A DNA stretch of 61,135 bases. Source: Escherichia phage Ec1-ASingh. Position numbers and translations under genes: made by a program. The stretch is from sequence record PQ561393; one strand, written 5' to 3'. Of this stretch, positions 1 through 43,985 are shown piece by piece (positions within the stretch are counted from its first letter, which is position 1; every line of letters begins with the position of its first letter). Below the pieces are notes generated by a model. That model saw only the letters and a program-made list of their open reading frames with translations, was not told the origin of the DNA and did not search any database.

Positions 1-1173
1 ATGGCTGAAGGCTCACGCTATAGTAGCTATTTTATCAAAGAGACGTCTTCTGGTGTGACCCCGGCAACGGGCACTCTGAAGATCTTCCGTGCTACGAAGT
101 CCGGATTGGACATCAACATCGCTACGTTGCAATCGGAAGAGATTCGCGACGACGCGGAGGTTGCTGATTTCCGCCTGGGCACTCGCCACGTAGAAGGTAC
201 TGCGTCTGCAGAGTTCTCCTACCAAACGTTTGACGATTTACTTGCTGCGGCATTGCGCAGTTCGTTTGTCGGCGGTATTGTAAAAGGTGGGATTGACCGT
301 CAATCTTTCACTTTTATTGACCATAACGCGGATATTGCCGATTTCCCGTATACCATTTATCGGGGTTGTGAAATTAACACAATGGCGATCTCTATCGCTG
401 CATCGTCTATGGTCACTATTGAGTTTGGCATCGTCGGTCGTACAATGGAACAAGCGGCCTCTCTTCCGTCTGGGCTGACAGTTGCGGATAGAACAACTAC
501 AGCACCAATGGACGGTTTCTCTGGCGCACTAAATATGGGCGGTGCTATTGTCGATGTCATTACCGAAATGGCGATCAACGTGGAGAATGGTATCGAGCCC
601 CGTTTTGTAGTGGGTTCTAAGTTCTCTATCAAGCCTGGTTCAAAACGTCGCCAGGTAACTGGTACGATGACAGCTTACTACGAAGACAACGCACTCCGCA
701 CGAAGTTCCTGGACGAGCAAGAGAGCGAGCTTGCCATTGATATCATCGACGGTACTACTGGCGCAGGCTACCGCTTTACTATGCCTCGTGTTAAGATTAC
801 CGAAGCACCTCGCCCAATCGATGGTGAAGGTGATATCATGCTGAATATGTCGTATCGTGGCCTTCTCGACCAAACTGAAGGTTATAGTATATCGATCGAG
901 CAGCTCACTCCGCTGGCGTTCACGACGAACTTACCAGCAACTAAATCTGTGGCAATCGGCGATGCGCTGACGTTGACTGTTGCAGTGGGTAGCGGCCAAG
1001 CTCCTTACAGCTATGTATGGAAGAAGGACGGTGTCGTAGTTTCTGGTCAGACTACTGCAACCTTCAATAAGGCATCAGCGGTAGCAGGTGACTCCGGTAC
1101 TTACGTCTGTGAAGTGACGGATACAAGCGGCCGCACTGTGTCAAGTGTTGCATGTGTGGTAAACGTCGCCTAA
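1..1173 (+). CDS. Major tail protein with C-terminal Ig-like (Big_2-type) domain
   Basis: 390 aa ORF directly upstream of chaperone/tape-measure genes; C-terminal ~80 aa (..YSYVWKKDGVVVSGQ..DSGTYVCEVTD..) has an Ig-like fold signature; RBS for this ORF lies at the window's 3' end. Confidence 0.65.
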   Translation: MAEGSRYSSYFIKETSSGVTPATGTLKIFRATKSGLDINIATLQSEEIRDDAEVADFRLGTRHVEGTASAEFSYQTFDDLLAAALRSSFVGGIVKGGIDRQSFTFIDHNADIADFPYTIYRGCEINTMAISIAASSMVTIEFGIVGRTMEQAASLPSGLTVADRTTTAPMDGFSGALNMGGAIVDVITEMAINVENGIEPRFVVGSKFSIKPGSKRRQVTGTMTAYYEDNALRTKFLDEQESELAIDIIDGTTGAGYRFTMPRVKITEAPRPIDGEGDIMLNMSYRGLLDQTEGYSISIEQLTPLAFTTNLPATKSVAIGDALTLTVAVGSGQAPYSYVWKKDGVVVSGQTTATFNKASAVAGDSGTYVCEVTDTSGRTVSSVACVVNVA

Positions 1174-1193: not shown

Positions 1194-1217
1194 AAGGGGT
1201 CGCAAGACCCCTTTTTA
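1194..1217 (+). terminator. Rho-independent terminator after major tail gene
   Basis: Hairpin aaggggtc-gcaa-gacccctt followed by TTTTT. Confidence 0.6.
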
Positions 1218-1231
1218 TTGAGGATTACACA

Positions 1232-1738
1232 ATGGCAGGTAATAAAACCGCAGCAGGCAAACAAGTGTCTTATGAACCGCAAGTCGCACCGTGGAACGAA
1301 CCAGCAGAGACAGGTGAACCCGACGTTGTTACTACGACCGCTGGAGTGAACGCAGTTAAGAAATCGTTCCGCGACTTCAATATGCGCAAACGTCTGGAAG
1401 AAAATCCAACCACTCTCTATCCGTTTGTGTATCCTGGGATGGGCGATACAGGTTACTGGCTTAAAATTCGTTCGCAGCATAGCGCAGAGTATCGCGAAGC
1501 TGAACAAAAGGCACAGCGGCAGATAAGCGCCATGATCCTTGCCGCCGGCGGTGAAGTTGACAAAGTTGACCCCGCGTTGATCAAAGACATCAGCCTCCGT
1601 GCATTCACTAAGCTGGTTGCGGAATGGAACTTCCCTGACGAGATGACTGAAGATAACCTCGTTGAGTTCCTTACCGATAACCCTATTGCGTATGACGAAA
1701 TTAATACGCTGGCCGCAACGGACTCCCTTTTTTTCTAA
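1232..1738 (+). CDS. Tail assembly chaperone (G-like)
   Basis: 168 aa ORF between major tail and tape measure genes; ends at slippery T-run. Confidence 0.55.
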   Translation: MAGNKTAAGKQVSYEPQVAPWNEPAETGEPDVVTTTAGVNAVKKSFRDFNMRKRLEENPTTLYPFVYPGMGDTGYWLKIRSQHSAEYREAEQKAQRQISAMILAAGGEVDKVDPALIKDISLRAFTKLVAEWNFPDEMTEDNLVEFLTDNPIAYDEINTLAATDSLFF

Positions 1739-2118
1739 GGGAACGTGAAAAGCTAATCAAGCATTTGCTGCTCGAGTGGAAACTTCAAAGCTGTCCACTC
1801 GGCAGCGAAACTCCTACGCTAACCCACCTGAAGCACGTCCGTAAGGTTACGGGCAAGACTCCATCACAGCTGGCTGAGTATGAAGCCAGCTCCGTACCTG
1901 AGTCACTCAGATACATTTACAACTACTTCCTTGACTTCTATAATGGTGATAAGTTCCGTTATTCTGAACTCTTGGCCTGGCAGCAGTACGCAGGTATTGA
2001 GCTGAATTACAGGGAAGCGGAACTCATACGTCAGATCTGCCTCGAGCGTAAGGCCTACGAATTTAAACGGCAGCAGGCAGAGATCGAATATATGAGGACC
2101 AAGAAGCCGAAGAGGTAA
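1232..2118 (+). CDS. Tail assembly chaperone frameshift fusion (GT-like), -1 shift at T_TTT_TTC 1729-1735
   Basis: Heptamer T TTT TTC immediately before stop of 1232..1738; -1 frame is open from 1705 to 2118 and ends 4 nt before tape measure start. Confidence 0.5.
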
Positions 2119-2121
2119 TCC

Positions 2122-5100
2122 ATGGCTGATGCAGCTGATATCGTCATCCGAGTTAGAACAGACGGGGTCGCCGGTGCGGACGCTGCGTTACGCCGTCTGC
2201 AACAAACTGGTGTCCGCGTTGAGACAGTCAGCGCCAGAGTAGAGAATGGCTTCCGACGTACTGCACAGAGCGCCGAATTCTTCCATACGTCTGTCAGCGC
2301 CGTTAATACTGTAATGACTGCAACCGCTATCCTGGCCTACGTGGGCGGGTTGGCGAAGCTGTCGGATGCGTGGACAGATGTAACAAACAAATTAGCGAAC
2401 GCCAACTCCGCGCATGAAGGCATGGCGGTGATCCAGGAACGTGTGTTCAATATTGCACAGCGCACTCGTACCAGCCTGGAATCGACGGCCACCCTGTATG
2501 CACGTATGGAGCGATCCCTTTCTCAGTACGGGGTGACAGGCAAAGAGGTTGCACAGATCACTGAAACGATTAACAAATCGATGATTGTGTCTGGTGCAAC
2601 CAGTGCGGAAGCAACGGCAGCGATTATCCAATTCTCACAGGGTCTGCAATCGGGTGTCCTGCGCGGTGACGAATTCCGTTCTGTAATGGAACAGGCCCCG
2701 CGTCTCGGCAAGATGATCGCAGACGGTCTGGGCGTGGGCACTGCTGGCCTGCGCGAGATGGCGAACACCGGCAAACTGACCGCTGATGTGGTCATCAATG
2801 CTATCTCCAGGGCTTCAGGTACTATCGACGAAGAGTTCGGTCGTACTATGCCTACCTTTGCACAGCGCTGGGCGATGGCAACAAACAACGTTGAACGATT
2901 TGCAGGGACTTCCGTGCAGGTGCAGTCCGTTGTCAAAGCGATGGGCGATGGTGTAGAGCTGCTGTCTAATAACCTGGGCACGTTGACCACAATCGTTACA
3001 GGCGTCGTTGCCGCGGTTGGCGGTAAGATGCTTGCGGCGCTTGGGTCGCAGGTAGTTGCAATGATTCGGCTTTCCGCAGTGCAGGCAAGTAGCTCCGCTA
3101 TCAATATTAAGATGGTGGATGCAATTACCCGCTCCAGTGTCGCACGCTACAATGAAGCACAGGCTACATTAGCACAGGTTGCAGCAGAACGCACCAGGAT
3201 CCAGGCTGCACTCGCTGCGAACCAGCAATATTATAAGGGCATTGCGACGACGAACGCCCTTATGCAGAATACCCGCCAGGCTCGGGAGGCTACCGTCGCA
3301 GCAGCGGCGGCACAGGCCACGATGTCCACCGCGATGGGTACTGCTGCCACTGCGAGCCGCGTGCTTACCATAGGCCTTACAGGGTTGCGCACGGTTATGG
3401 GTTTCCTGGGCGGCCCGTTGGGTCTGGTGCTTCTCGCTGCGACTGCATGGTATACGTACAGCCAGAACGCCAAACAGGCGACGCAAGATTCTATAGATCT
3501 TGCAAGCTCGCAGGAAGATCTTAAAACAAAACTCGAGTCGCTGAACCTTGTACAGCAACGTGCTCTTGAAGTCCAGCTCCAGCGTGCAGGTGTAACACTG
3601 GCAGAAAACATTGCTGCTGAGAAAAGAGAGCTCGCGGAACTTAATAACCGCTTGAGCACTACCAGCACAGTGATGGCCCAGAACGAGGAAGGGACTCGAG
3701 CCTGGAACAGTGCTTACGAAGCTCACAAACAACTTACGGGCGATATTGCTATTAAGCAAGGTGAACTTTCTACGCTGGAAGAAAAGGCAATCCAGATTAA
3801 GAACAACCTTGCAACGGTTCAGGATAATCTGCGCAATGCTGTAATGGGCTTAACTGGTGCTATCGTTGCGCAGAACCAGGCGCTTGACATTAACATCAGT
3901 TCCGCGGCAGGTCGTTCTAAGGAACTCCAGGCTGCACTGGTAGCACAGAATGCCGAGCTAGATATCTCTAACATGAAGTTAGCAGGTAACAAGCGAGGCG
4001 CGGCACAGTTACAGGACGCACAGAACCGCCTCGGTAAGCAGTACGCAGCAAACGAAGACTTTATTAAGAACTATATTAGCGGTCATCAAGACGCTATGGC
4101 TGTCTTGACCGACGAGCAGCAAGGTATCGTAGAGTTCCTTAATAAATCTGGTCAAGCCTATGACGCACAAGAAAAGCTCCAAGAAAAGCTCAAGGCAGGA
4201 CGTCAAGCTCTGAAGGACGAGAAAGCTCTTGCGGCTTATGGGGAGCAGTGGGACAAGGCTTACGAACGCGTCGAGGCCCGAGGTGCTACAGGTTTAGACC
4301 GTTTGCGCATTCAGCAGGAAGCAGAAGTCCGTATTATGAAGGACAAAGCAGAGAAAGCTAAAGCGACCGAAGAGGAACTCGGTGCAGCCCTTAAAGCAAT
4401 CGATGCTAAATATGCGCGTCAGCGTGCAGACCTTGCGGGGCAGTATAAGCCTGGCGCCCAGATGGTGCGTGAGTGGCAGATTGCACAGCAGGAGATTAAA
4501 CAGCTCCACGAAGCTGGTCTGCTGGATGATGCACAATACAACACCGCGAGACTGAACCTATCCGCGGAGTATTACCAGAAGCGTGCAGCGATGTCTACGC
4601 TCAACCCGTTCCAGCAGTCGGAAGACACTAAACGGTCGGAGATGGACGCTCTGCAAGCGCAGTACAATACTCAGCTCCAGATGGCAGAAGGTAATGAACA
4701 ACAGCTCACTGCCATCAAAGAGAACTACGAGAAACAGCGTTACGACATTCAGATGAAGTATGCGCAGCAACAGGCGCAGGCGCAAGCACAGACTACGCTG
4801 TCCTATATCCAGAGTGTAAGCACGATTGCAGACAGCATGGCGGGCATACTTGAAGCGGCAGGAGCTAAATCCTCAGGGGCTTACAAAGTTATGTTCGCGA
4901 TGTCAAAAGCATTCTCCATTGCACAGGCGACGCTTAGTTTGAGCACAGCTATCGTCCAGGCTATGGCTGACCCGTCCGCCCTTACCCCTGCGCAGAAGTT
5001 TGCTAACTACGCCGCTGTAGCTGCCGCAGGTGGTGCGCTGATACAACAGATTATGAGCGCTAGTTTGACAGGTATGGCACACGACGGTATCACCCAAGTG

Positions 5101-5379
5101 CCGCAAGAAGGAACATGGTTACTTCAGAAAGGTGAACGTGTACTTTCTGCCCAGCAGAACGCAGATTTTACTAACTTTATGAGCGGTGGAAATAATGGTT
5201 CTACTGGTAATCAGGGTGGCGCTACAATCGTTCAACATATCACTGTTACCGGTAATGGTGATAAAACACTCAAAGAGGCCATGCAGCAGGCTGCGAAAGA
5301 TGGTGCTCAACAAGGTTACGACATGGTCTTGCGAGATACTAACTCGCGCGGTAATATTAGCCGGTCGATTGGCCGTTAA
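2122..5379 (+). CDS. Tail tape measure protein
   Basis: 1085 aa, Ala/Gln-rich coiled-coil with hydrophobic central segments, follows chaperone pair. Confidence 0.85.
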   Translation: MADAADIVIRVRTDGVAGADAALRRLQQTGVRVETVSARVENGFRRTAQSAEFFHTSVSAVNTVMTATAILAYVGGLAKLSDAWTDVTNKLANANSAHEGMAVIQERVFNIAQRTRTSLESTATLYARMERSLSQYGVTGKEVAQITETINKSMIVSGATSAEATAAIIQFSQGLQSGVLRGDEFRSVMEQAPRLGKMIADGLGVGTAGLREMANTGKLTADVVINAISRASGTIDEEFGRTMPTFAQRWAMATNNVERFAGTSVQVQSVVKAMGDGVELLSNNLGTLTTIVTGVVAAVGGKMLAALGSQVVAMIRLSAVQASSSAINIKMVDAITRSSVARYNEAQATLAQVAAERTRIQAALAANQQYYKGIATTNALMQNTRQAREATVAAAAAQATMSTAMGTAATASRVLTIGLTGLRTVMGFLGGPLGLVLLAATAWYTYSQNAKQATQDSIDLASSQEDLKTKLESLNLVQQRALEVQLQRAGVTLAENIAAEKRELAELNNRLSTTSTVMAQNEEGTRAWNSAYEAHKQLTGDIAIKQGELSTLEEKAIQIKNNLATVQDNLRNAVMGLTGAIVAQNQALDINISSAAGRSKELQAALVAQNAELDISNMKLAGNKRGAAQLQDAQNRLGKQYAANEDFIKNYISGHQDAMAVLTDEQQGIVEFLNKSGQAYDAQEKLQEKLKAGRQALKDEKALAAYGEQWDKAYERVEARGATGLDRLRIQQEAEVRIMKDKAEKAKATEEELGAALKAIDAKYARQRADLAGQYKPGAQMVREWQIAQQEIKQLHEAGLLDDAQYNTARLNLSAEYYQKRAAMSTLNPFQQSEDTKRSEMDALQAQYNTQLQMAEGNEQQLTAIKENYEKQRYDIQMKYAQQQAQAQAQTTLSYIQSVSTIADSMAGILEAAGAKSSGAYKVMFAMSKAFSIAQATLSLSTAIVQAMADPSALTPAQKFANYAAVAAAGGALIQQIMSASLTGMAHDGITQVPQEGTWLLQKGERVLSAQQNADFTNFMSGGNNGSTGNQGGATIVQHITVTGNGDKTLKEAMQQAAKDGAQQGYDMVLRDTNSRGNISRSIGR

Positions 5380-5405: not shown

Positions 5406-5999
5406 ATGGCAATATTAGACTGGCCGGAAAATCTTAGGCCTTCTTCAATGAATTGGACGCTTTCATCTAGCGGTTCTATGTTTGAGAGCGTATTCAATAA
5501 ATCAACACAAACAGTCACCTTTCCTGGTTCTAAATGGAAAGTAACTATGTCTTTCCAAGACTTAGACGATTTCGAGTCGCGCCTTCTCGAATCCATCATC
5601 GTAGATCTTGATGGCATGGGTGGGCGAATTCGCCTGGGTGACTTTGGTCGTTGCGGTGTGCCAGCACAGGGCACACCTATAGTTAGCGGCGCTAACCAGA
5701 CAGGGAAAAGCATCCTTACTGCCGGATGGCTGCCGGACCGTATGATTCTTGCCCGCGGGCAATATTTAACAATTGAAGACGAAATGAAAATGGTGCTTAC
5801 GGATGCCTGGTCTGATGAGCAGGGTTTTGCAACCATCCGTATAGGCCCAATGCTTCGCATTTCTCCTGCTGCCGGCGCACCTATTGAAGTTCAAAGCCCG
5901 CGCGGTATTTTCATGCTAACGGAAAACGAGAACGGTGTTGCTCGTAAACCTGCGTTCTCGAATGATTTTAATCTGTCTTTCATGGAGTACATAGAATGA
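5406..5999 (+). CDS. Minor tail protein
   Basis: 197 aa ORF immediately after tape measure; RBS AGGACGA. Confidence 0.5.
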   Translation: MAILDWPENLRPSSMNWTLSSSGSMFESVFNKSTQTVTFPGSKWKVTMSFQDLDDFESRLLESIIVDLDGMGGRIRLGDFGRCGVPAQGTPIVSGANQTGKSILTAGWLPDRMILARGQYLTIEDEMKMVLTDAWSDEQGFATIRIGPMLRISPAAGAPIEVQSPRGIFMLTENENGVARKPAFSNDFNLSFMEYIE

Positions 6000-35996: not shown

Positions 35997-38535
35997 ACAT
36001 GTTTTCAATGAGTTGGTCAACTTTCACAAGATCTATTCTGTAAGCAGTTCCGCTGAATGGTTTAGATAGACCGTCAGTGTAAGGCGGGTTCTGTAGCTCC
36101 GCACGCGATAACGGTTGCATTGCACCTAAGTCAATCACGGATCTTACAGCATTCTCAAACATCTCTTTCTTACTTCTACCCTTACTAAACGCAGCCAGGT
36201 TTATGGTATGCGCACGCAAATCACTTTTAGTAAGAACGAAATTCTGAGTCAATAACGGGTAGTTGGCCTGATCACGCCCGTTACATTTTTCAATCAAACT
36301 TTTAATCTTACTAAGCACTAAGCGGTCACAGTTAATGTCGTCTGACCCGATAAGACCCTGTTTGTGTTTCTTGATAATACGTTCGTTACTGGTGTTAATG
36401 AACGTAGACGCCCATTCGAAGTGACGCATCGTTACTTCAGGATTATAGCAGTTGTCCGCTACAGCTAACAGGCACGCAATTTTAAGGATTTTAAATGCGC
36501 GTCGGTTATGCGCTTGACGAACTACCTCATCCGTTTCAATATTACCGTTTACCCCGTTTAACAGCCTATTAATTTCAACGTCAAGATTATCGTACGCCTC
36601 ACCCGCTTCATGGTCCAGCTTAACCGTACAGGGTTCTGTCCCAGCGTGCAGTTTAACCGCTTGAGTGATAAGCTCCCCTAATCCGCGCAATAACCCTTCA
36701 GGCATGGGCTGAACAGCGTTCTTATTCTCGAGCGGACGCAGTACATCGCAATCCCATATAGTCAAACGAGATATAAACCCGCCTGAAAGCATGTCCTGAG
36801 TAACCGTCGAATAAAACTCGTCAGGTGTACACTCACCCGCAAGACTGTATGCTGCAAGACGCCCACCAACGTGGTTATTCTCTTTGTTAGAGTATTTAAA
36901 CCCGTCTGCACGAGAATAGAATGAACTTTGGTTATACAGTGTCAACATCGCATGTTGCAATTCAGGAGCCTTACCATAACCTGTCGCAATACCTTTAAAA
37001 AAATCTGCAATTTCTTCCATGTAATGCACAAACGACAAACGGTCCATAGCACCGTCCGCAACAATAACGGATTTCATTAATGCTTGCTCGGATCCATATC
37101 TTGCGGTATCAAGGAAACTTCGCGCGCCAAATAGTTGAGTCCCATCCTTACCGCCGAACATTTCTACTGTCTGTAACACGTTCTGGATATTGGAACGGAA
37201 TGCGTCCTTACCTAGCCCCGAACGAGCTACAAGAACAAAATAGTTGTTCAGACCGCCACGTGTGTGGGTGTTCCATGCTTTACCACATACCCCGCTTAAC
37301 AGCGCCAGGGTTGACAGTATCGCAATGTCTTTCACCGGACGTAAGCTAATAGAGAACATGTAACGAGCAAGCTCACCAGCAGCACCTGGAGGCCAGTCAA
37401 GCCCACCGTCCGCTTCGATAGTGTAGTTCCCATCAGTTGCGAGGAATTCGCTCGGTGCAGGTGCAGGGAGAGACGCTTCATATTGCTTTTGCTTCTGTTC
37501 AAGTGTGCGCTGGATGTTAGCCTTCATAATGGCTTCACGTTCCATGTTGGACACTTGCTCGTCCATGCGACGCCGTTTAATCATACGGTCTAGATGATAG
37601 GGCTTCTTCACTTTATCATGGATAGCACGACGTTCGTCAAAGTAGCGGTCGCCCATTTTGGACATATAAAACATGCGACGAACTTGGAAGTTATATTTCG
37701 TGTAGAATGCAATAATATCTACAAGTGCAAATTCTGCTTCGGATTGAGATGGAAACGCGCGTTCACCTATGTCGTAGTTAACGTCCCCGTTAAGGTAACG
37801 CCCGTCCCATAGCTGACGGAATAGATTACCGTTGCTTGCTTCACATGCTTTGATATAGAGGTCTTCGTCTTTGATAGCGTACGGGTCATTTTCATATTCT
37901 TCTTCCGTAAGTTCTACCATCTCGAAGCCATCTAACAATGACACACCATTCATCTGGCTGCGCATGTTGTAAAGCAGTTCCGCGATATACGTTTCGCTTT
38001 CGTGCCCTGGTTTACCTGCAACCTCCAGAGGGCTGATGTTCCAATGGTTGCCGGTGCAAATCATAAAACGGTATTGGGTGTATATTTCAACACCGTCGCG
38101 ACGCTTGCCCTCTTGTGGTAAAGCATAGACCCACAGGTGCAAACCGTTACCGCTACGCGATATTTCAGTATAGCTATGGAAGGATCTTACAATCTGCTCG
38201 TAACGGGCGCCCGCTTTTTGAATAGTTTCAGCATCCCATTCCTGTTTAATATCCATGTCAATGCAACAGAACGGATCGGACGGCATGAGGTAGAACCCAG
38301 CCATCAACGAGTGACCGTTCATGTTATAATATTTAATACACTGTTGAACGCTTTCAAAGTCCATCAAAAGATGAAGGTTAGGTGGGTGTCTTTCGTTACC
38401 GTCCTTGCAGAGCGGCACCATGTTGCCTAGTTCGTTGTCCCAGACATACGGTTGTTTATCATTAGACCCGTTATTCTTAAATCCGCAGACGGCCCACTGT
38501 GGCACATCTTTTATCGCTTGCGGGAACTTGTCCAT
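35995..38535 (-). CDS. DNA primase/helicase (AEP/PrimPol-like N-terminal domain plus P-loop NTPase)
   Basis: SGNGLHLW-type primase-polymerase motif in N-terminal third; Walker-A-like ARSGLGKD in C-terminal half; 846 aa. Confidence 0.7.
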   Translation of the reverse strand: MDKFPQAIKDVPQWAVCGFKNNGSNDKQPYVWDNELGNMVPLCKDGNERHPPNLHLLMDFESVQQCIKYYNMNGHSLMAGFYLMPSDPFCCIDMDIKQEWDAETIQKAGARYEQIVRSFHSYTEISRSGNGLHLWVYALPQEGKRRDGVEIYTQYRFMICTGNHWNISPLEVAGKPGHESETYIAELLYNMRSQMNGVSLLDGFEMVELTEEEYENDPYAIKDEDLYIKACEASNGNLFRQLWDGRYLNGDVNYDIGERAFPSQSEAEFALVDIIAFYTKYNFQVRRMFYMSKMGDRYFDERRAIHDKVKKPYHLDRMIKRRRMDEQVSNMEREAIMKANIQRTLEQKQKQYEASLPAPAPSEFLATDGNYTIEADGGLDWPPGAAGELARYMFSISLRPVKDIAILSTLALLSGVCGKAWNTHTRGGLNNYFVLVARSGLGKDAFRSNIQNVLQTVEMFGGKDGTQLFGARSFLDTARYGSEQALMKSVIVADGAMDRLSFVHYMEEIADFFKGIATGYGKAPELQHAMLTLYNQSSFYSRADGFKYSNKENNHVGGRLAAYSLAGECTPDEFYSTVTQDMLSGGFISRLTIWDCDVLRPLENKNAVQPMPEGLLRGLGELITQAVKLHAGTEPCTVKLDHEAGEAYDNLDVEINRLLNGVNGNIETDEVVRQAHNRRAFKILKIACLLAVADNCYNPEVTMRHFEWASTFINTSNERIIKKHKQGLIGSDDINCDRLVLSKIKSLIEKCNGRDQANYPLLTQNFVLTKSDLRAHTINLAAFSKGRSKKEMFENAVRSVIDLGAMQPLSRAELQNPPYTDGLSKPFSGTAYRIDLVKVDQLIENM

Positions 38536-43669: not shown

Positions 43670-43985
43670 TGTAGGCTGTAGTAGACGTGTAGTAGGCGAT
43701 CTACTACACAAATAAAATATGGCGAAACCCGCGGCAGTGCTGGGAAATTTTGGCTCACAGCTCCGACTTGCACTGGCTGTAGTACGCGTTAAAGGGGTAT
43801 CTCGTAATACGCCAGCTAATAATTAGCCAAGTTAACGATTATTCTATAATAAAAAAAAAACATACTACATATACTACATATATATTTAGATACTCTCTAC
43901 AAACCCTGAAAACTCTCGCTTTTCGCGAAAATATTCCCGTTAAATCGCCCCCTACTACAGCGTACTACAGCCTACTACAGACCGA
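43670..43985. repeat. Iteron cluster: 9 copies of TACTACA / TGTAGTA
   Basis: Copies at 43678, 43688, 43702 (forming inverted repeat gtgtagtag-gcgat-ctactacac), 43778, 43863, 43872 and three tandem 10-mers cNtactacag at 43951-43980. Confidence 0.65.
43849..43860. other. A-tract (A12) within AT-rich segment
   Basis: ataataaaaaaaaaa flanked by AT-rich sequence between iteron copies. Confidence 0.6.

What the first reader, a model, noticed from the sequence alone, without database searches (positions are those of the whole stretch)
1705..1740. Programmed -1 ribosomal frameshift site in tail chaperone gene
The chaperone ORF ends ...C CTT TTT TTC TAA. The heptamer T_TTT_TTC (1729-1735) is a canonical slippery site and the -1 frame is open from 1705 to 2118, ending just before the tape measure gene. 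This reproduces the conserved G/GT arrangement of long-tailed phages.
Basis: seen in the sequence. Interest (0 to 1): 0.45.

Follow-up and report, generated by a model that had tools for sequence, protein, structure and literature searches.

The report
Tail chaperone G/GT −1 frameshift site
This is the ordinary, well-known programmed −1 ribosomal frameshift that lets long-tailed phages make a short and a long tail-assembly chaperone from one gene; it is correctly spotted and very strongly conserved, but not new.

Summary
The 168-codon chaperone ORF (1232-1738) ends CTT TTT TTC TAA. T_TTT_TTC lies in phase at 1729-1735, and the −1 frame is open only from 1705 to 2118. The gene pair sits between the major tail protein and tape measure genes. 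In 42 related phage loci (about 25-100% protein identity; Klebsiella, Escherichia, Pantoea, Providencia, Pseudomonas, Xanthomonas, Stenotrophomonas, Vibrio, Acinetobacter phages and metagenomic contigs), 41 contain both halves and all 41 show the −1 arrangement. An in-phase T_TTT_TTC is present in 39 of these and T_TTT_TTA in one. The heptamer stays fixed while the 0-frame stop moves 0-102 nt downstream. The −1-frame peptide is conserved from the first codon after the heptamer. The TTG at 1765 has no Shine-Dalgarno sequence, is not conserved and lies inside a hairpin stem. Two GenBank relatives (Seuratvirus SA80RD, Acinetobacter phage DMU1) already annotate the homologous slippage; the nearest relatives do not. 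No stimulator sits at the canonical 5-9 nt spacing. A strong hairpin with compensatory changes lies 28 nt downstream (1764-1809), and its role is unknown. Verdict: a real, ordinary G/GT frameshift of low novelty, with no protein-level evidence here.

The parts
1..1173 (+). Major tail (tube) protein gene with a C-terminal Ig-like domain; upstream neighbour that defines the G/GT context
   Evidence: PF18906 Phage_tube_2 E=1.4e-44 and Ig_2/Ig_3; phrog_290
1232..1738 (+). Gene G: tail assembly (tape measure) chaperone, 168 aa, the product of standard decoding; SD GAGGA at 1220-1224
   Evidence: ORF list; phrog_313 'Tail assembly chaperone' E=3.7e-11 and phrog_569 profile positions 11-117; no Pfam or NCBIfam hit
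1729..1735 (+). Slippery heptamer T_TTT_TTC in phase with G. tRNA-Phe on UUU (P site) and tRNA-Phe on UUC (A site) can re-pair to UUU UUU one base back
   Evidence: conserved in phase in 39 of 41 related loci, plus T_TTT_TTA in one; U_UU.U_UU.C is frameshift-prone in E. coli (PMC4066793)
1736..1738 (+). 0-frame TAA stop of G, immediately 3' of the heptamer; a possible minor enhancer, but its position is not conserved in relatives (0-102 nt)
1735..2118 (+). T segment: −1-frame extension (127 codons plus stop) read after the shift. Predicted GT = join(1232..1735,1735..2118), 295 aa, with junction ...ATDSLFF|LREREKLIKH...
   Evidence: PF23812 Phage_TAC_18 E=2.1e-17; phrog_569 profile positions 155-241 and phrog_4966; gap-free fusion alignment A3
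1764..1809 (+). Strong RNA hairpin (16 bp) starting 28 nt after the heptamer and containing TTG 1765-1767 in its base. It is associated with the site, but its role is unknown and it is too far away to be a classical −1 PRF stimulator
   Evidence: MFE −29.8 kcal/mol, z −4.1; rank 24 of 6108 60-nt windows; same offsets in Nonagvirus with 2 compensatory pairs and none broken in the 9-bp outer stem; z −1.9 against synonymous recoding
2122..5379 (+). Tape measure protein gene (1085 aa); downstream neighbour; SD GAGG at 2112-2115
   Evidence: PF20155 TMP_3 E=4.6e-59; phrog_339 E=2e-184

Best explanation
Genes G (1232-1738) and T (−1 frame, to 2118) form the tail-assembly-chaperone pair of a Queuovirinae-like siphovirus. 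Most ribosomes read G to its TAA and release the 168-aa chaperone. A small fraction slips back one base on U_UUU_UUC (1729-1735), with the two tRNA-Phe re-pairing to UUU UUU. These ribosomes re-read C1735 as the first base of CUA and continue in the −1 frame to 2118, making a 295-aa GT fusion (...DSLFF-LREREK...). By analogy with lambda gpG/gpGT, the G part of both proteins coats the tape measure protein, and the T part of the rare fusion recruits the major tail protein. Tube polymerisation therefore starts on the tape measure at a fixed G:GT ratio. Shown here: the sequence anatomy, the homology and the deep conservation of the shift site. Inferred: the slippage itself, its low efficiency and the assembly role.
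For: Anatomy is exact. Context is MTP-G-T-TMP, and the T segment hits Pfam Phage_TAC_18. One PHROG profile (phrog_569, 256 positions) matches G at positions 11-117 and T at 155-241, which means the two halves are joined in other phages. A tblastn search with the fusion found 170 phage records, nearly all as two pieces in different frames. Of 21 GenBank loci examined first, all are −1: 19 have in-phase T_TTT_TTC, one has T_TTT_TTA and one (Serbin) has none. A further 20 loci (2 GenBank, 18 IMG/VR) are all −1 with T_TTT_TTC. The heptamer is fixed while the 0-frame stop varies from 0 to 102 nt. The wobble base before it is always T across five different amino acids. The −1 peptide is conserved from the first codon after the heptamer, and the fusion alignment has no gaps at the junction. 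As a negative control, the only other in-phase T7 heptamer (primase, 36997-37003, − strand) is not conserved: the Nonagvirus keeps the Phe-Phe but has no T6 run. U_UU.U_UU.C gives more than 0.1% shifting in E. coli without a stimulator, belongs to the efficient H_HH.U_UU.Y class and is used by IS elements (PMC4066793). The homologous site is annotated as ribosomal slippage in SA80RD and as a gpGT frameshift product in DMU1. The lambda mechanism and the 30:1 ratio are given in PMC5009743.
Against: There is no protein or ribosome-profiling evidence for this phage or, as far as I found, for any member of this chaperone family; the relatives' annotations are themselves inferences. No stimulatory element is present at the canonical position: the first 55 nt downstream are unstructured (z +0.2) and there is no SD-like sequence upstream. 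Efficiency could therefore be low. G itself has no Pfam, NCBIfam or PDB sequence match, so calling it a chaperone rests on PHROG families and synteny. One homolog (Serratia phage Serbin) lacks the heptamer.
Confidence: 0.88

Rival explanations
1. Transcriptional slippage: RNA polymerase stutters on the T7 run (1728-1734) and adds one U, so a subset of mRNAs encodes GT in a single frame and the ribosome does not shift.
For: The site is a homopolymer. UUUUUUU/AAAAAAA runs are under-represented in all frames of E. coli genes, possibly because of such slippage (PMC4066793). A one-base insertion would give the same GT protein except for one extra Phe.
Against: Efficient in vivo slippage was shown for runs of 9 A/T, and the RNAP hybrid is 9-10 bp (PMC5009743). 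Here the run is 7, and it is only 6 in six of the 21 sequences tabulated (Vid5, two Seuratviruses, PSTCR7 and two Vibrio phages), all with the same arrangement. The last base is C (or A) in all 40 loci and never T, although TTT would be synonymous and would lengthen the run.
Confidence: 0.05
2. Single-tRNA 'shifty stop' variant of ribosomal slippage: the shift occurs when UUC is in the P site and the slowly decoded UAA (1736-1738) is in the A site (tetramer U_UUC). It does not occur by tandem slippage of two tRNAs. The product is identical.
For: The stop codon abuts the heptamer in the window, its Klebsiella-phage relatives, Nonagvirus and Seuratvirus. U_UU.C is the second most shift-prone tetramer in E. 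coli (PMC4066793).
Against: In most other lineages the stop lies 3-102 nt away, yet the full heptamer, including the first T at a wobble position, is conserved. This argues that two-tRNA re-pairing is what is under selection. In E. coli, tetramers alone were barely above background without a strong pseudoknot.
Confidence: 0.1
3. T is a separate protein that starts at its own TTG (1765), and no fusion protein is made. This is the scenario the first reader named as refuting the frameshift.
For: ORF finders and most GenBank relatives annotate a separate downstream ORF.
Against: The 20 nt before TTG 1765 contain no SD-like motif, in contrast to G (GAGGA) and TMP (GAGG). The TTG is CTG in L025 and TTA in the Nonagviruses, and annotated starts differ from record to record. 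The TTG lies in the base of a 16-bp stem. The ten −1-frame codons between the heptamer and the TTG are conserved (LREREKLIKH vs LRSREKLIDH, with 4 synonymous changes), and this conservation extends to distant lineages.
Confidence: 0.03
4. Artefact or decay: the frame change is a sequencing or assembly indel in a homopolymer, or a recent frameshift mutation in what is really a single ORF.
For: Homopolymer runs are error-prone in sequencing.
Against: The same −1 offset occurs at the same place in 41 independently sequenced isolates and metagenomic contigs across many genera. The G frame has a conserved nearby stop, and the T frame has 20 stops upstream of 1705.
Confidence: 0.01

Closest known systems
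Phage lambda gpG/gpGT tail assembly chaperones (programmed −1 frameshift; Levin, Hendrix & Casjens 1993; Xu, Hendrix & Duda 2004, 2013, 2014; summarised in PMC5009743)
   Same: Both have two overlapping ORFs between the major tail and tape measure genes, with the downstream ORF in the −1 frame and lacking its own start. Both have a slippery heptamer near the end of G and a short product plus a rare fusion. No strong 3' stimulator is needed (from my own recollection for lambda, not checked here).
   Different: The heptamer is U_UUU_UUC (tRNA-Phe), not G_GGA_AAG (tRNA-Gly/Lys). No sequence similarity to lambda G/T was detected; the family is PHROG 313/569 plus Pfam PF23812. The 0-frame stop directly abuts the heptamer. 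The G:GT ratio and the binding partners are untested here.
Annotated orthologous sites: Escherichia phage vB_EcoS_SA80RD (Seuratvirus, OL960575; joined 'tape measure chaperone' CDS with note 'Ribosomal slippage') and Acinetobacter phage DMU1 (MT992243; 'gpGT frameshift product')
   Same: The proteins are homologous (about 42% and 28% identity over the fusion), with the same T_TTT_TTC heptamer at the same alignment column and the same −1 direction.
   Different: These are annotations by inference, not experiments. The window's nearest relatives (K9PH25C2, Kpn2-P2, about 97% DNA identity) and the four Nonagvirus records whose annotation I retrieved (ChristophMerian, ESCO3, SE1, and JenP1 from the hit table) list two separate ORFs, and some mislabel G as 'tail length tape measure protein'.
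IS-element and E. coli −1 PRF sites using U_UU.U_UU.C (Sharma et al. 2014, PMC4066793); dnaX/IS911-type stimulated −1 PRF
   Same: The slippery motif class is the same and the two-tRNA re-pairing logic is the same.
   Different: Those sites usually combine the heptamer with an upstream SD-like sequence and a hairpin or pseudoknot 5-9 nt downstream. Here neither is present at those positions; the only strong hairpin starts 28 nt downstream.

Membership tests
G/GT tail assembly chaperone programmed −1 frameshift of long-tailed phages | Gene pair lies between the major tail (tube) protein gene and the tape measure protein gene | tested here: met
   MTP 1-1173 (PF18906), G 1232-1738, T to 2118, TMP 2122-5379 (PF20155), distal tail protein 5406-5999 (phrog_1302):
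G/GT tail assembly chaperone programmed −1 frameshift of long-tailed phages | Downstream ORF overlaps the end of G in the −1 frame and has no credible start or RBS of its own | tested here: met
   −1 frame open 1705-2118 after 20 stops. The only candidate start, TTG 1765, has no SD, is not conserved and lies in a stem
G/GT tail assembly chaperone programmed −1 frameshift of long-tailed phages | Slippery sequence (X_XXY_YYZ) in phase with G inside the overlap | tested here: met
   T_TTT_TTC at 1729-1735; unique in about 16,300 codons; the motif is frameshift-prone in E. coli (PMC4066793)
G/GT tail assembly chaperone programmed −1 frameshift of long-tailed phages | Frame arrangement and shift site conserved among divergent homologs, beyond what the protein sequence requires | tested here: met
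   41/41 loci are −1 and 40/41 have T_TTT_TTC/A. The preceding wobble base is always T across L/N/D/S/A codons. The stop distance is 0-102 nt. The −1 peptide is conserved from the first codon
G/GT tail assembly chaperone programmed −1 frameshift of long-tailed phages | G and T belong to recognised tail assembly chaperone protein families | tested here: met
   T: PF23812 Phage_TAC_18, 63.5 bits against a cutoff of 27. G: phrog_313 'Tail assembly chaperone' E=3.7e-11 and phrog_569. Caveat: G has no Pfam, NCBIfam or PDB sequence hit, and the fold was not tested
G/GT tail assembly chaperone programmed −1 frameshift of long-tailed phages | A GT fusion polypeptide is actually made, at a low fixed ratio to G, and both are needed for tail assembly but absent from virions | not testable with these tools
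   Needs mass spectrometry, western blot, a reporter or genetics. No experimental report for this family was found in the searchable literature
Stimulated −1 PRF of the dnaX / IS911 / retroviral type | Stable hairpin or pseudoknot beginning about 5-9 nt 3' of the heptamer, and/or an SD-like element 10-14 nt 5' of it | tested here: not met
   1736-1790 is unstructured (z +0.21). The strong hairpin starts 28 nt downstream, whereas the spacer optimum is 6-8 nt with steep fall-off (PMC3458567). There is no SD-like motif in the 17 nt upstream. Some distant relatives do have hairpins at 5-7 nt (L010, L017)
Programmed transcriptional slippage | Homopolymer run about as long as the RNA:DNA hybrid (around 9), or a shorter run with a dedicated nascent-RNA hairpin | tested here: not met
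   The run is T7 here and T6 in six of the 21 sequences tabulated. It is never extended although that would be synonymous. The threshold comes from PMC5009743

The most novel reading that the evidence does not exclude
The hairpin at 1764-1809 is conserved in position between this clade and the Nonagviruses, with two compensatory pairs, and is replaced by differently placed strong hairpins in Vid5, K4PH164 and the Seuratviruses. It could be a functional RNA element coupled to the recoding site at a non-canonical 22-35 nt spacing. For example, it could set the G:GT(:TMP) ratio by acting as a 3' decay barrier just after the G stop. It could also block reinitiation or internal initiation at the T-frame TTG, or modulate frameshifting at long range. 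In distant relatives whose G stop lies far downstream, the hairpin sits at the canonical 5-7 nt instead.
Probability: 0.15. Interest if true: 0.4.

Novelty: new member of a known kind. Interest (0 to 1): 0.15.

Why it matters
The value is mainly for annotation. The closest relatives and the E. coli Nonagvirus records I retrieved list G and T as two unrelated ORFs, sometimes mislabelled 'tape measure protein' or 'unknown function', and miss the 295-aa GT product. The family-wide conservation of one specific heptamer (T_TTT_TTC) from Acinetobacter to Klebsiella phages gives a simple rule for fixing these annotations. It is also a clean comparative example of a Phe-Phe slippery site that is under selection at synonymous positions. 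It does not open a new biological question, because the G/GT frameshift is textbook.

Tried and rejected
(1) Pfam and NCBIfam on G, and a PDB sequence search with the fusion, gave no meaningful hits.
(2) RNAalifold on a seven-genus MAFFT alignment of the 102 nt from the heptamer gave no convincing common structure (−4 kcal/mol). The hairpins are in different registers in different genera, so only the window-clade/Nonagvirus comparison gives pair-by-pair covariation.
(3) A stimulator at canonical spacing was rejected: 1736-1790 folds no better than shuffles.
(4) An upstream SD-like stimulator is absent and nothing there is conserved.
(5) An IMG/VR scan with the 14-sequence fusion alignment failed because no stretch was conserved enough.
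(6) The other in-phase homopolymer heptamer (T_TTT_TTT, primase/helicase codon 511, 36997-37003 on the − strand, with an immediate −1 stop) was considered as a dnaX-like truncation site. It was rejected because it is not conserved in Nonagvirus or Seurat.
(7) The A10 run at 43851-43860 is intergenic and AT-rich, with no ORF of 50 aa or more over it, so it is not a recoding site.
(8) The terminator/promoter scan of 1100-2300 found nothing relevant on the + strand.
(9) Structure prediction and large protein-database searches were not run. They would not change the verdict.

Full report
**1. The observation**

The ORF 1232-1738 encodes 168 aa ending ...ATDSLFF. Its last codons are CTT TTT TTC TAA, so T_TTT_TTC occupies 1729-1735 in X_XXY_YYZ phase.

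The −1 frame carries 20 stop codons between 1219 and 1702. It is then open from 1705 to the TAA at 2116-2118, which is 3 nt before the ATG of the next gene at 2122.

The site is statistically unusual:
- The T7 run 1728-1734 is the only T run of 7 or more on the + strand of the whole 61-kb window.
- In about 16,300 codons of the 57 longest non-overlapping ORFs there are 39 in-phase XXXYYYZ heptamers of any sort. Six belong to the class that is efficient in E. coli.
- T_TTT_TTC occurs in phase once only, at this site.
- Of the 18 Phe-Phe dipeptides, only this one is spelled T_TTT_TTC.

**2. What the genes are**

The upstream gene (1-1173) is a tail tube protein with an Ig-like C-terminal domain (PF18906, E=1.4e-44). 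The downstream gene (2122-5379) is the tape measure protein (PF20155, E=4.6e-59), and a distal tail protein follows it (phrog_1302).

The −1-frame segment hits Pfam PF23812 'Phage tail assembly chaperone' (63.5 bits, cutoff 27). G hits phrog_313 'Tail assembly chaperone' (E=3.7e-11).

One PHROG profile, phrog_569, matches G at profile positions 11-117 and T at 155-241. In other phages, therefore, the two halves are held as a single protein. G has no Pfam, NCBIfam or PDB sequence match.

The window is about 97% identical to Klebsiella phages vB_Kpn_K9PH25C2 and vB_Kpn2-P2 (Queuovirinae). It is about 71% identical over this region to E. coli Nonagviruses.

**3. Comparative evidence**

A tblastn search with the predicted 295-aa fusion found 170 phage records, nearly all as two pieces in different frames.

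I retrieved 23 GenBank loci spanning about 25-100% protein identity. They come from Klebsiella, Escherichia, Salmonella, Pantoea, Providencia, Pseudomonas, Xanthomonas, Stenotrophomonas, Janthinobacterium, Variovorax, Vibrio, Serratia and Acinetobacter phages. I also retrieved 19 IMG/VR contigs. One IMG/VR contig (L034) is truncated and lacks G, which leaves 41 informative loci.

Across these 41 loci:
- All 41 have T in the −1 frame relative to G.
- 39 have an in-phase T_TTT_TTC in the overlap.
- One (K4PH164) has T_TTT_TTA.
- One (Serratia phage Serbin) has G_TTC_TTT at the homologous position.

The pattern of conservation is the signature of a recoding site rather than of protein constraint alone:
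- The base before TTT_TTC is always T, although that codon is CTT, AAT, GAT, AGT or GCT.
- The two Phe codons are always TTT then TTC.
- The 0-frame stop wanders from 0 to 102 nt downstream, and the 0-frame tail is not conserved.
- The −1-frame peptide is conserved from the very first codon after the heptamer. The window has LREREKLIKHLLLEW, the Nonagvirus has LRSREKLIDHLLLEW and a Pseudomonas phage has REKVEQLGKHAEAEF.
- Fourteen reconstructed fusion proteins align through the junction without a single gap. F167 is invariant and F168 nearly so.

An internal negative control supports this reading. The only other in-phase T7 heptamer in the genome lies in the primase/helicase gene at 36997-37003 on the − strand. 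The Nonagvirus ortholog keeps the Phe-Phe there but has no T6 run at all.

**4. Mechanism**

The best-supported mechanism is tandem −1 slippage of two tRNA-Phe on U_UUU_UUC. C1735 is then re-read as the first base of CUA, giving GT = join(1232..1735,1735..2118).

Sharma et al. 2014 (PMC4066793) support the motif:
- U_UU.U_UU.C is among the heptamers that shift above 0.10% in E. coli without any stimulator, and it is under-represented in E. coli genes.
- The most efficient class in E. coli is H_HH.U_UU.Y.
- IS elements use this motif.

The function is inferred from lambda. There gpG, and the G part of gpGT, bind the tape measure protein. The T domain of the rare fusion recruits the major tail protein, and the G:GT ratio is about 30:1. 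Neither protein is in the virion (PMC5009743).

**5. Rival explanations**

- **Transcriptional slippage.** This is unlikely as the main route. Efficient slippage in vivo was shown for runs of 9, and the hybrid is 9-10 bp (PMC5009743). The run is 7 here and only 6 in six of the 21 sequences tabulated. It is never lengthened by the synonymous TTC-to-TTT change.
- **Independent initiation at TTG 1765.** This is disfavoured on four counts. There is no SD in the 20 nt upstream, unlike G (GAGGA 1220-1224) and TMP (GAGG 2112-2115). The TTG is CTG in L025 and TTA in the Nonagviruses. It lies in the base of a 16-bp stem. The ten codons between the heptamer and the TTG are conserved in the −1 frame.
- **P-site-only 'shifty stop' slip (U_UUC with UAA in the A site).** This could contribute in this clade, because the stop abuts the heptamer. 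However, the stop position is not conserved while the full heptamer is.
- **Sequencing artefact.** The 41 independent assemblies exclude this.

**6. Stimulatory elements**

No stimulator sits at the classical position. The region 1736-1790 folds no better than shuffled sequence (z +0.2), and there is no SD-like motif upstream.

There is, however, a strong hairpin at 1764-1809:
- It has 16 bp and an MFE of −29.8 kcal/mol for the 90-nt region, with z −4.1.
- It ranks 24 of 6,108 among 60-nt windows in this genome.
- The Nonagviruses have a hairpin at exactly the same offsets (29-74 nt after the heptamer). All nine pairs of the outer stem are kept, and two changed on both sides: U-A to C-G, and G-C to A-U. 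The second change involves two synonymous third positions.
- Vid5, K4PH164 and the Seuratviruses have strong hairpins in other registers, starting 22-35 nt after the heptamer.
- With the T-frame protein sequence held fixed, the native 92 nt are more stable than synonymous recodings in these genera (z −1.5 to −3.8). This is not true in several distant lineages.

A 28-nt spacer is far beyond the 6-8 nt optimum, around which a change of 1-2 nt already costs 2- to 5-fold (PMC3458567). I therefore do not call this hairpin a frameshift stimulator, and its role is unexplained.

Some distant relatives, whose G stop lies far downstream, do have hairpins at the canonical spacing. Examples are Pseudomonas phage Baskent_P4_1 at 7 nt and Ab18 at 5 nt.

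**7. Comparison with what is known, and novelty**

This is the G/GT arrangement first shown in lambda and found across long-tailed phages. All the defining features that can be tested in silico are met.

The homologous site is already annotated as 'Ribosomal slippage' in Seuratvirus SA80RD, and as a 'gpGT frameshift product' in Acinetobacter phage DMU1. It is not annotated in the window's nearest relatives or in the Nonagvirus records I retrieved, which list two ORFs.

I found no paper describing or testing the frameshift in this family. The Seurat genome announcement mentions only a 'tape measure chaperone'.

The finding is therefore a correct call of an ordinary feature, useful for annotation but of low novelty.

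Noticed in passing
window 1764-1809 (+): A strong 16-bp RNA hairpin starts 28 nt after the slippery heptamer and contains TTG 1765 in its base. The Nonagviruses have one at the same offsets, with two compensatory pairs. Vid5, K4PH164 and the Seuratviruses have hairpins in other registers. It is too far away to be a classical −1 PRF stimulator and its function is unknown (possibly a decay barrier after the G stop, or masking of internal initiation).
   Followed up: partly
window 1196-1216 (+): A terminator-like hairpin, GGGGTC-GCAA-GACCCC followed by TTTTT, lies between the major tail protein stop (1171-1173) and the G start. A similar GC hairpin plus T run sits at the same place in K9PH25C2, ChristophMerian and ESCO3. 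It is plausibly a leaky terminator that lowers chaperone and TMP expression relative to the tube protein. It was seen by eye and was not listed by the scan.
   Followed up: no
window 1232-1345 (+); L001 2732-2780: The N-terminus of G is variable. The window has 168 aa, whereas the otherwise ~97%-identical K9PH25C2 and Kpn2-P2 have 146 aa with a shorter and different N-terminus. IMG/VR contigs L024 and L025 carry the long form.
   Followed up: partly
L018 (Serratia phage Serbin, NC_074756) 990-1115: This is the only homolog without the T_TTT_TTC heptamer. The homologous site reads G_TTC_TTT, and the only in-phase heptamer in the overlap is A_AAG_GGT at 1099, downstream of the conserved T-frame peptide. 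It could reflect a different shift site, a sequencing error or loss of the frameshift.
   Followed up: partly
L010 1097-1150, L017 1012-1027, L012 ~978-1023: In the Pseudomonas and Acinetobacter relatives, where the G stop is 48-102 nt downstream, a hairpin begins 5-7 nt after the heptamer. That is the canonical stimulator spacing and contrasts with the enterobacterial group.
   Followed up: partly
window 36997-37003 (− strand), codon 511 of ORF 38535-35995: An in-phase T_TTT_TTT heptamer lies in the 846-aa AEP-primase/DUF3987-helicase gene, between the two domains, with a TAA immediately in the −1 frame. This resembles a dnaX-like truncation layout. It is not conserved: the Nonagvirus keeps FF without a T run, and Seurat lacks the FF. 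It is probably incidental.
   Followed up: yes
window 43851-43860: An A10 run, the longest homopolymer in the window, follows TATAAT in an AT-rich stretch with no ORF of 50 aa or more over it. It looks like an intergenic or promoter region.
   Followed up: partly
L001, L002, L003, L005, L007, L010 and other GenBank relatives: Annotation of this gene pair is inconsistent in public records. G is labelled 'tail length tape measure protein' in K9PH25C2 and Kpn2-P2. T is called 'unknown function' or 'hypothetical', with start codons that differ from record to record, and it is omitted altogether in ESCO3, OddieOddie and Almagne.
   Followed up: yes
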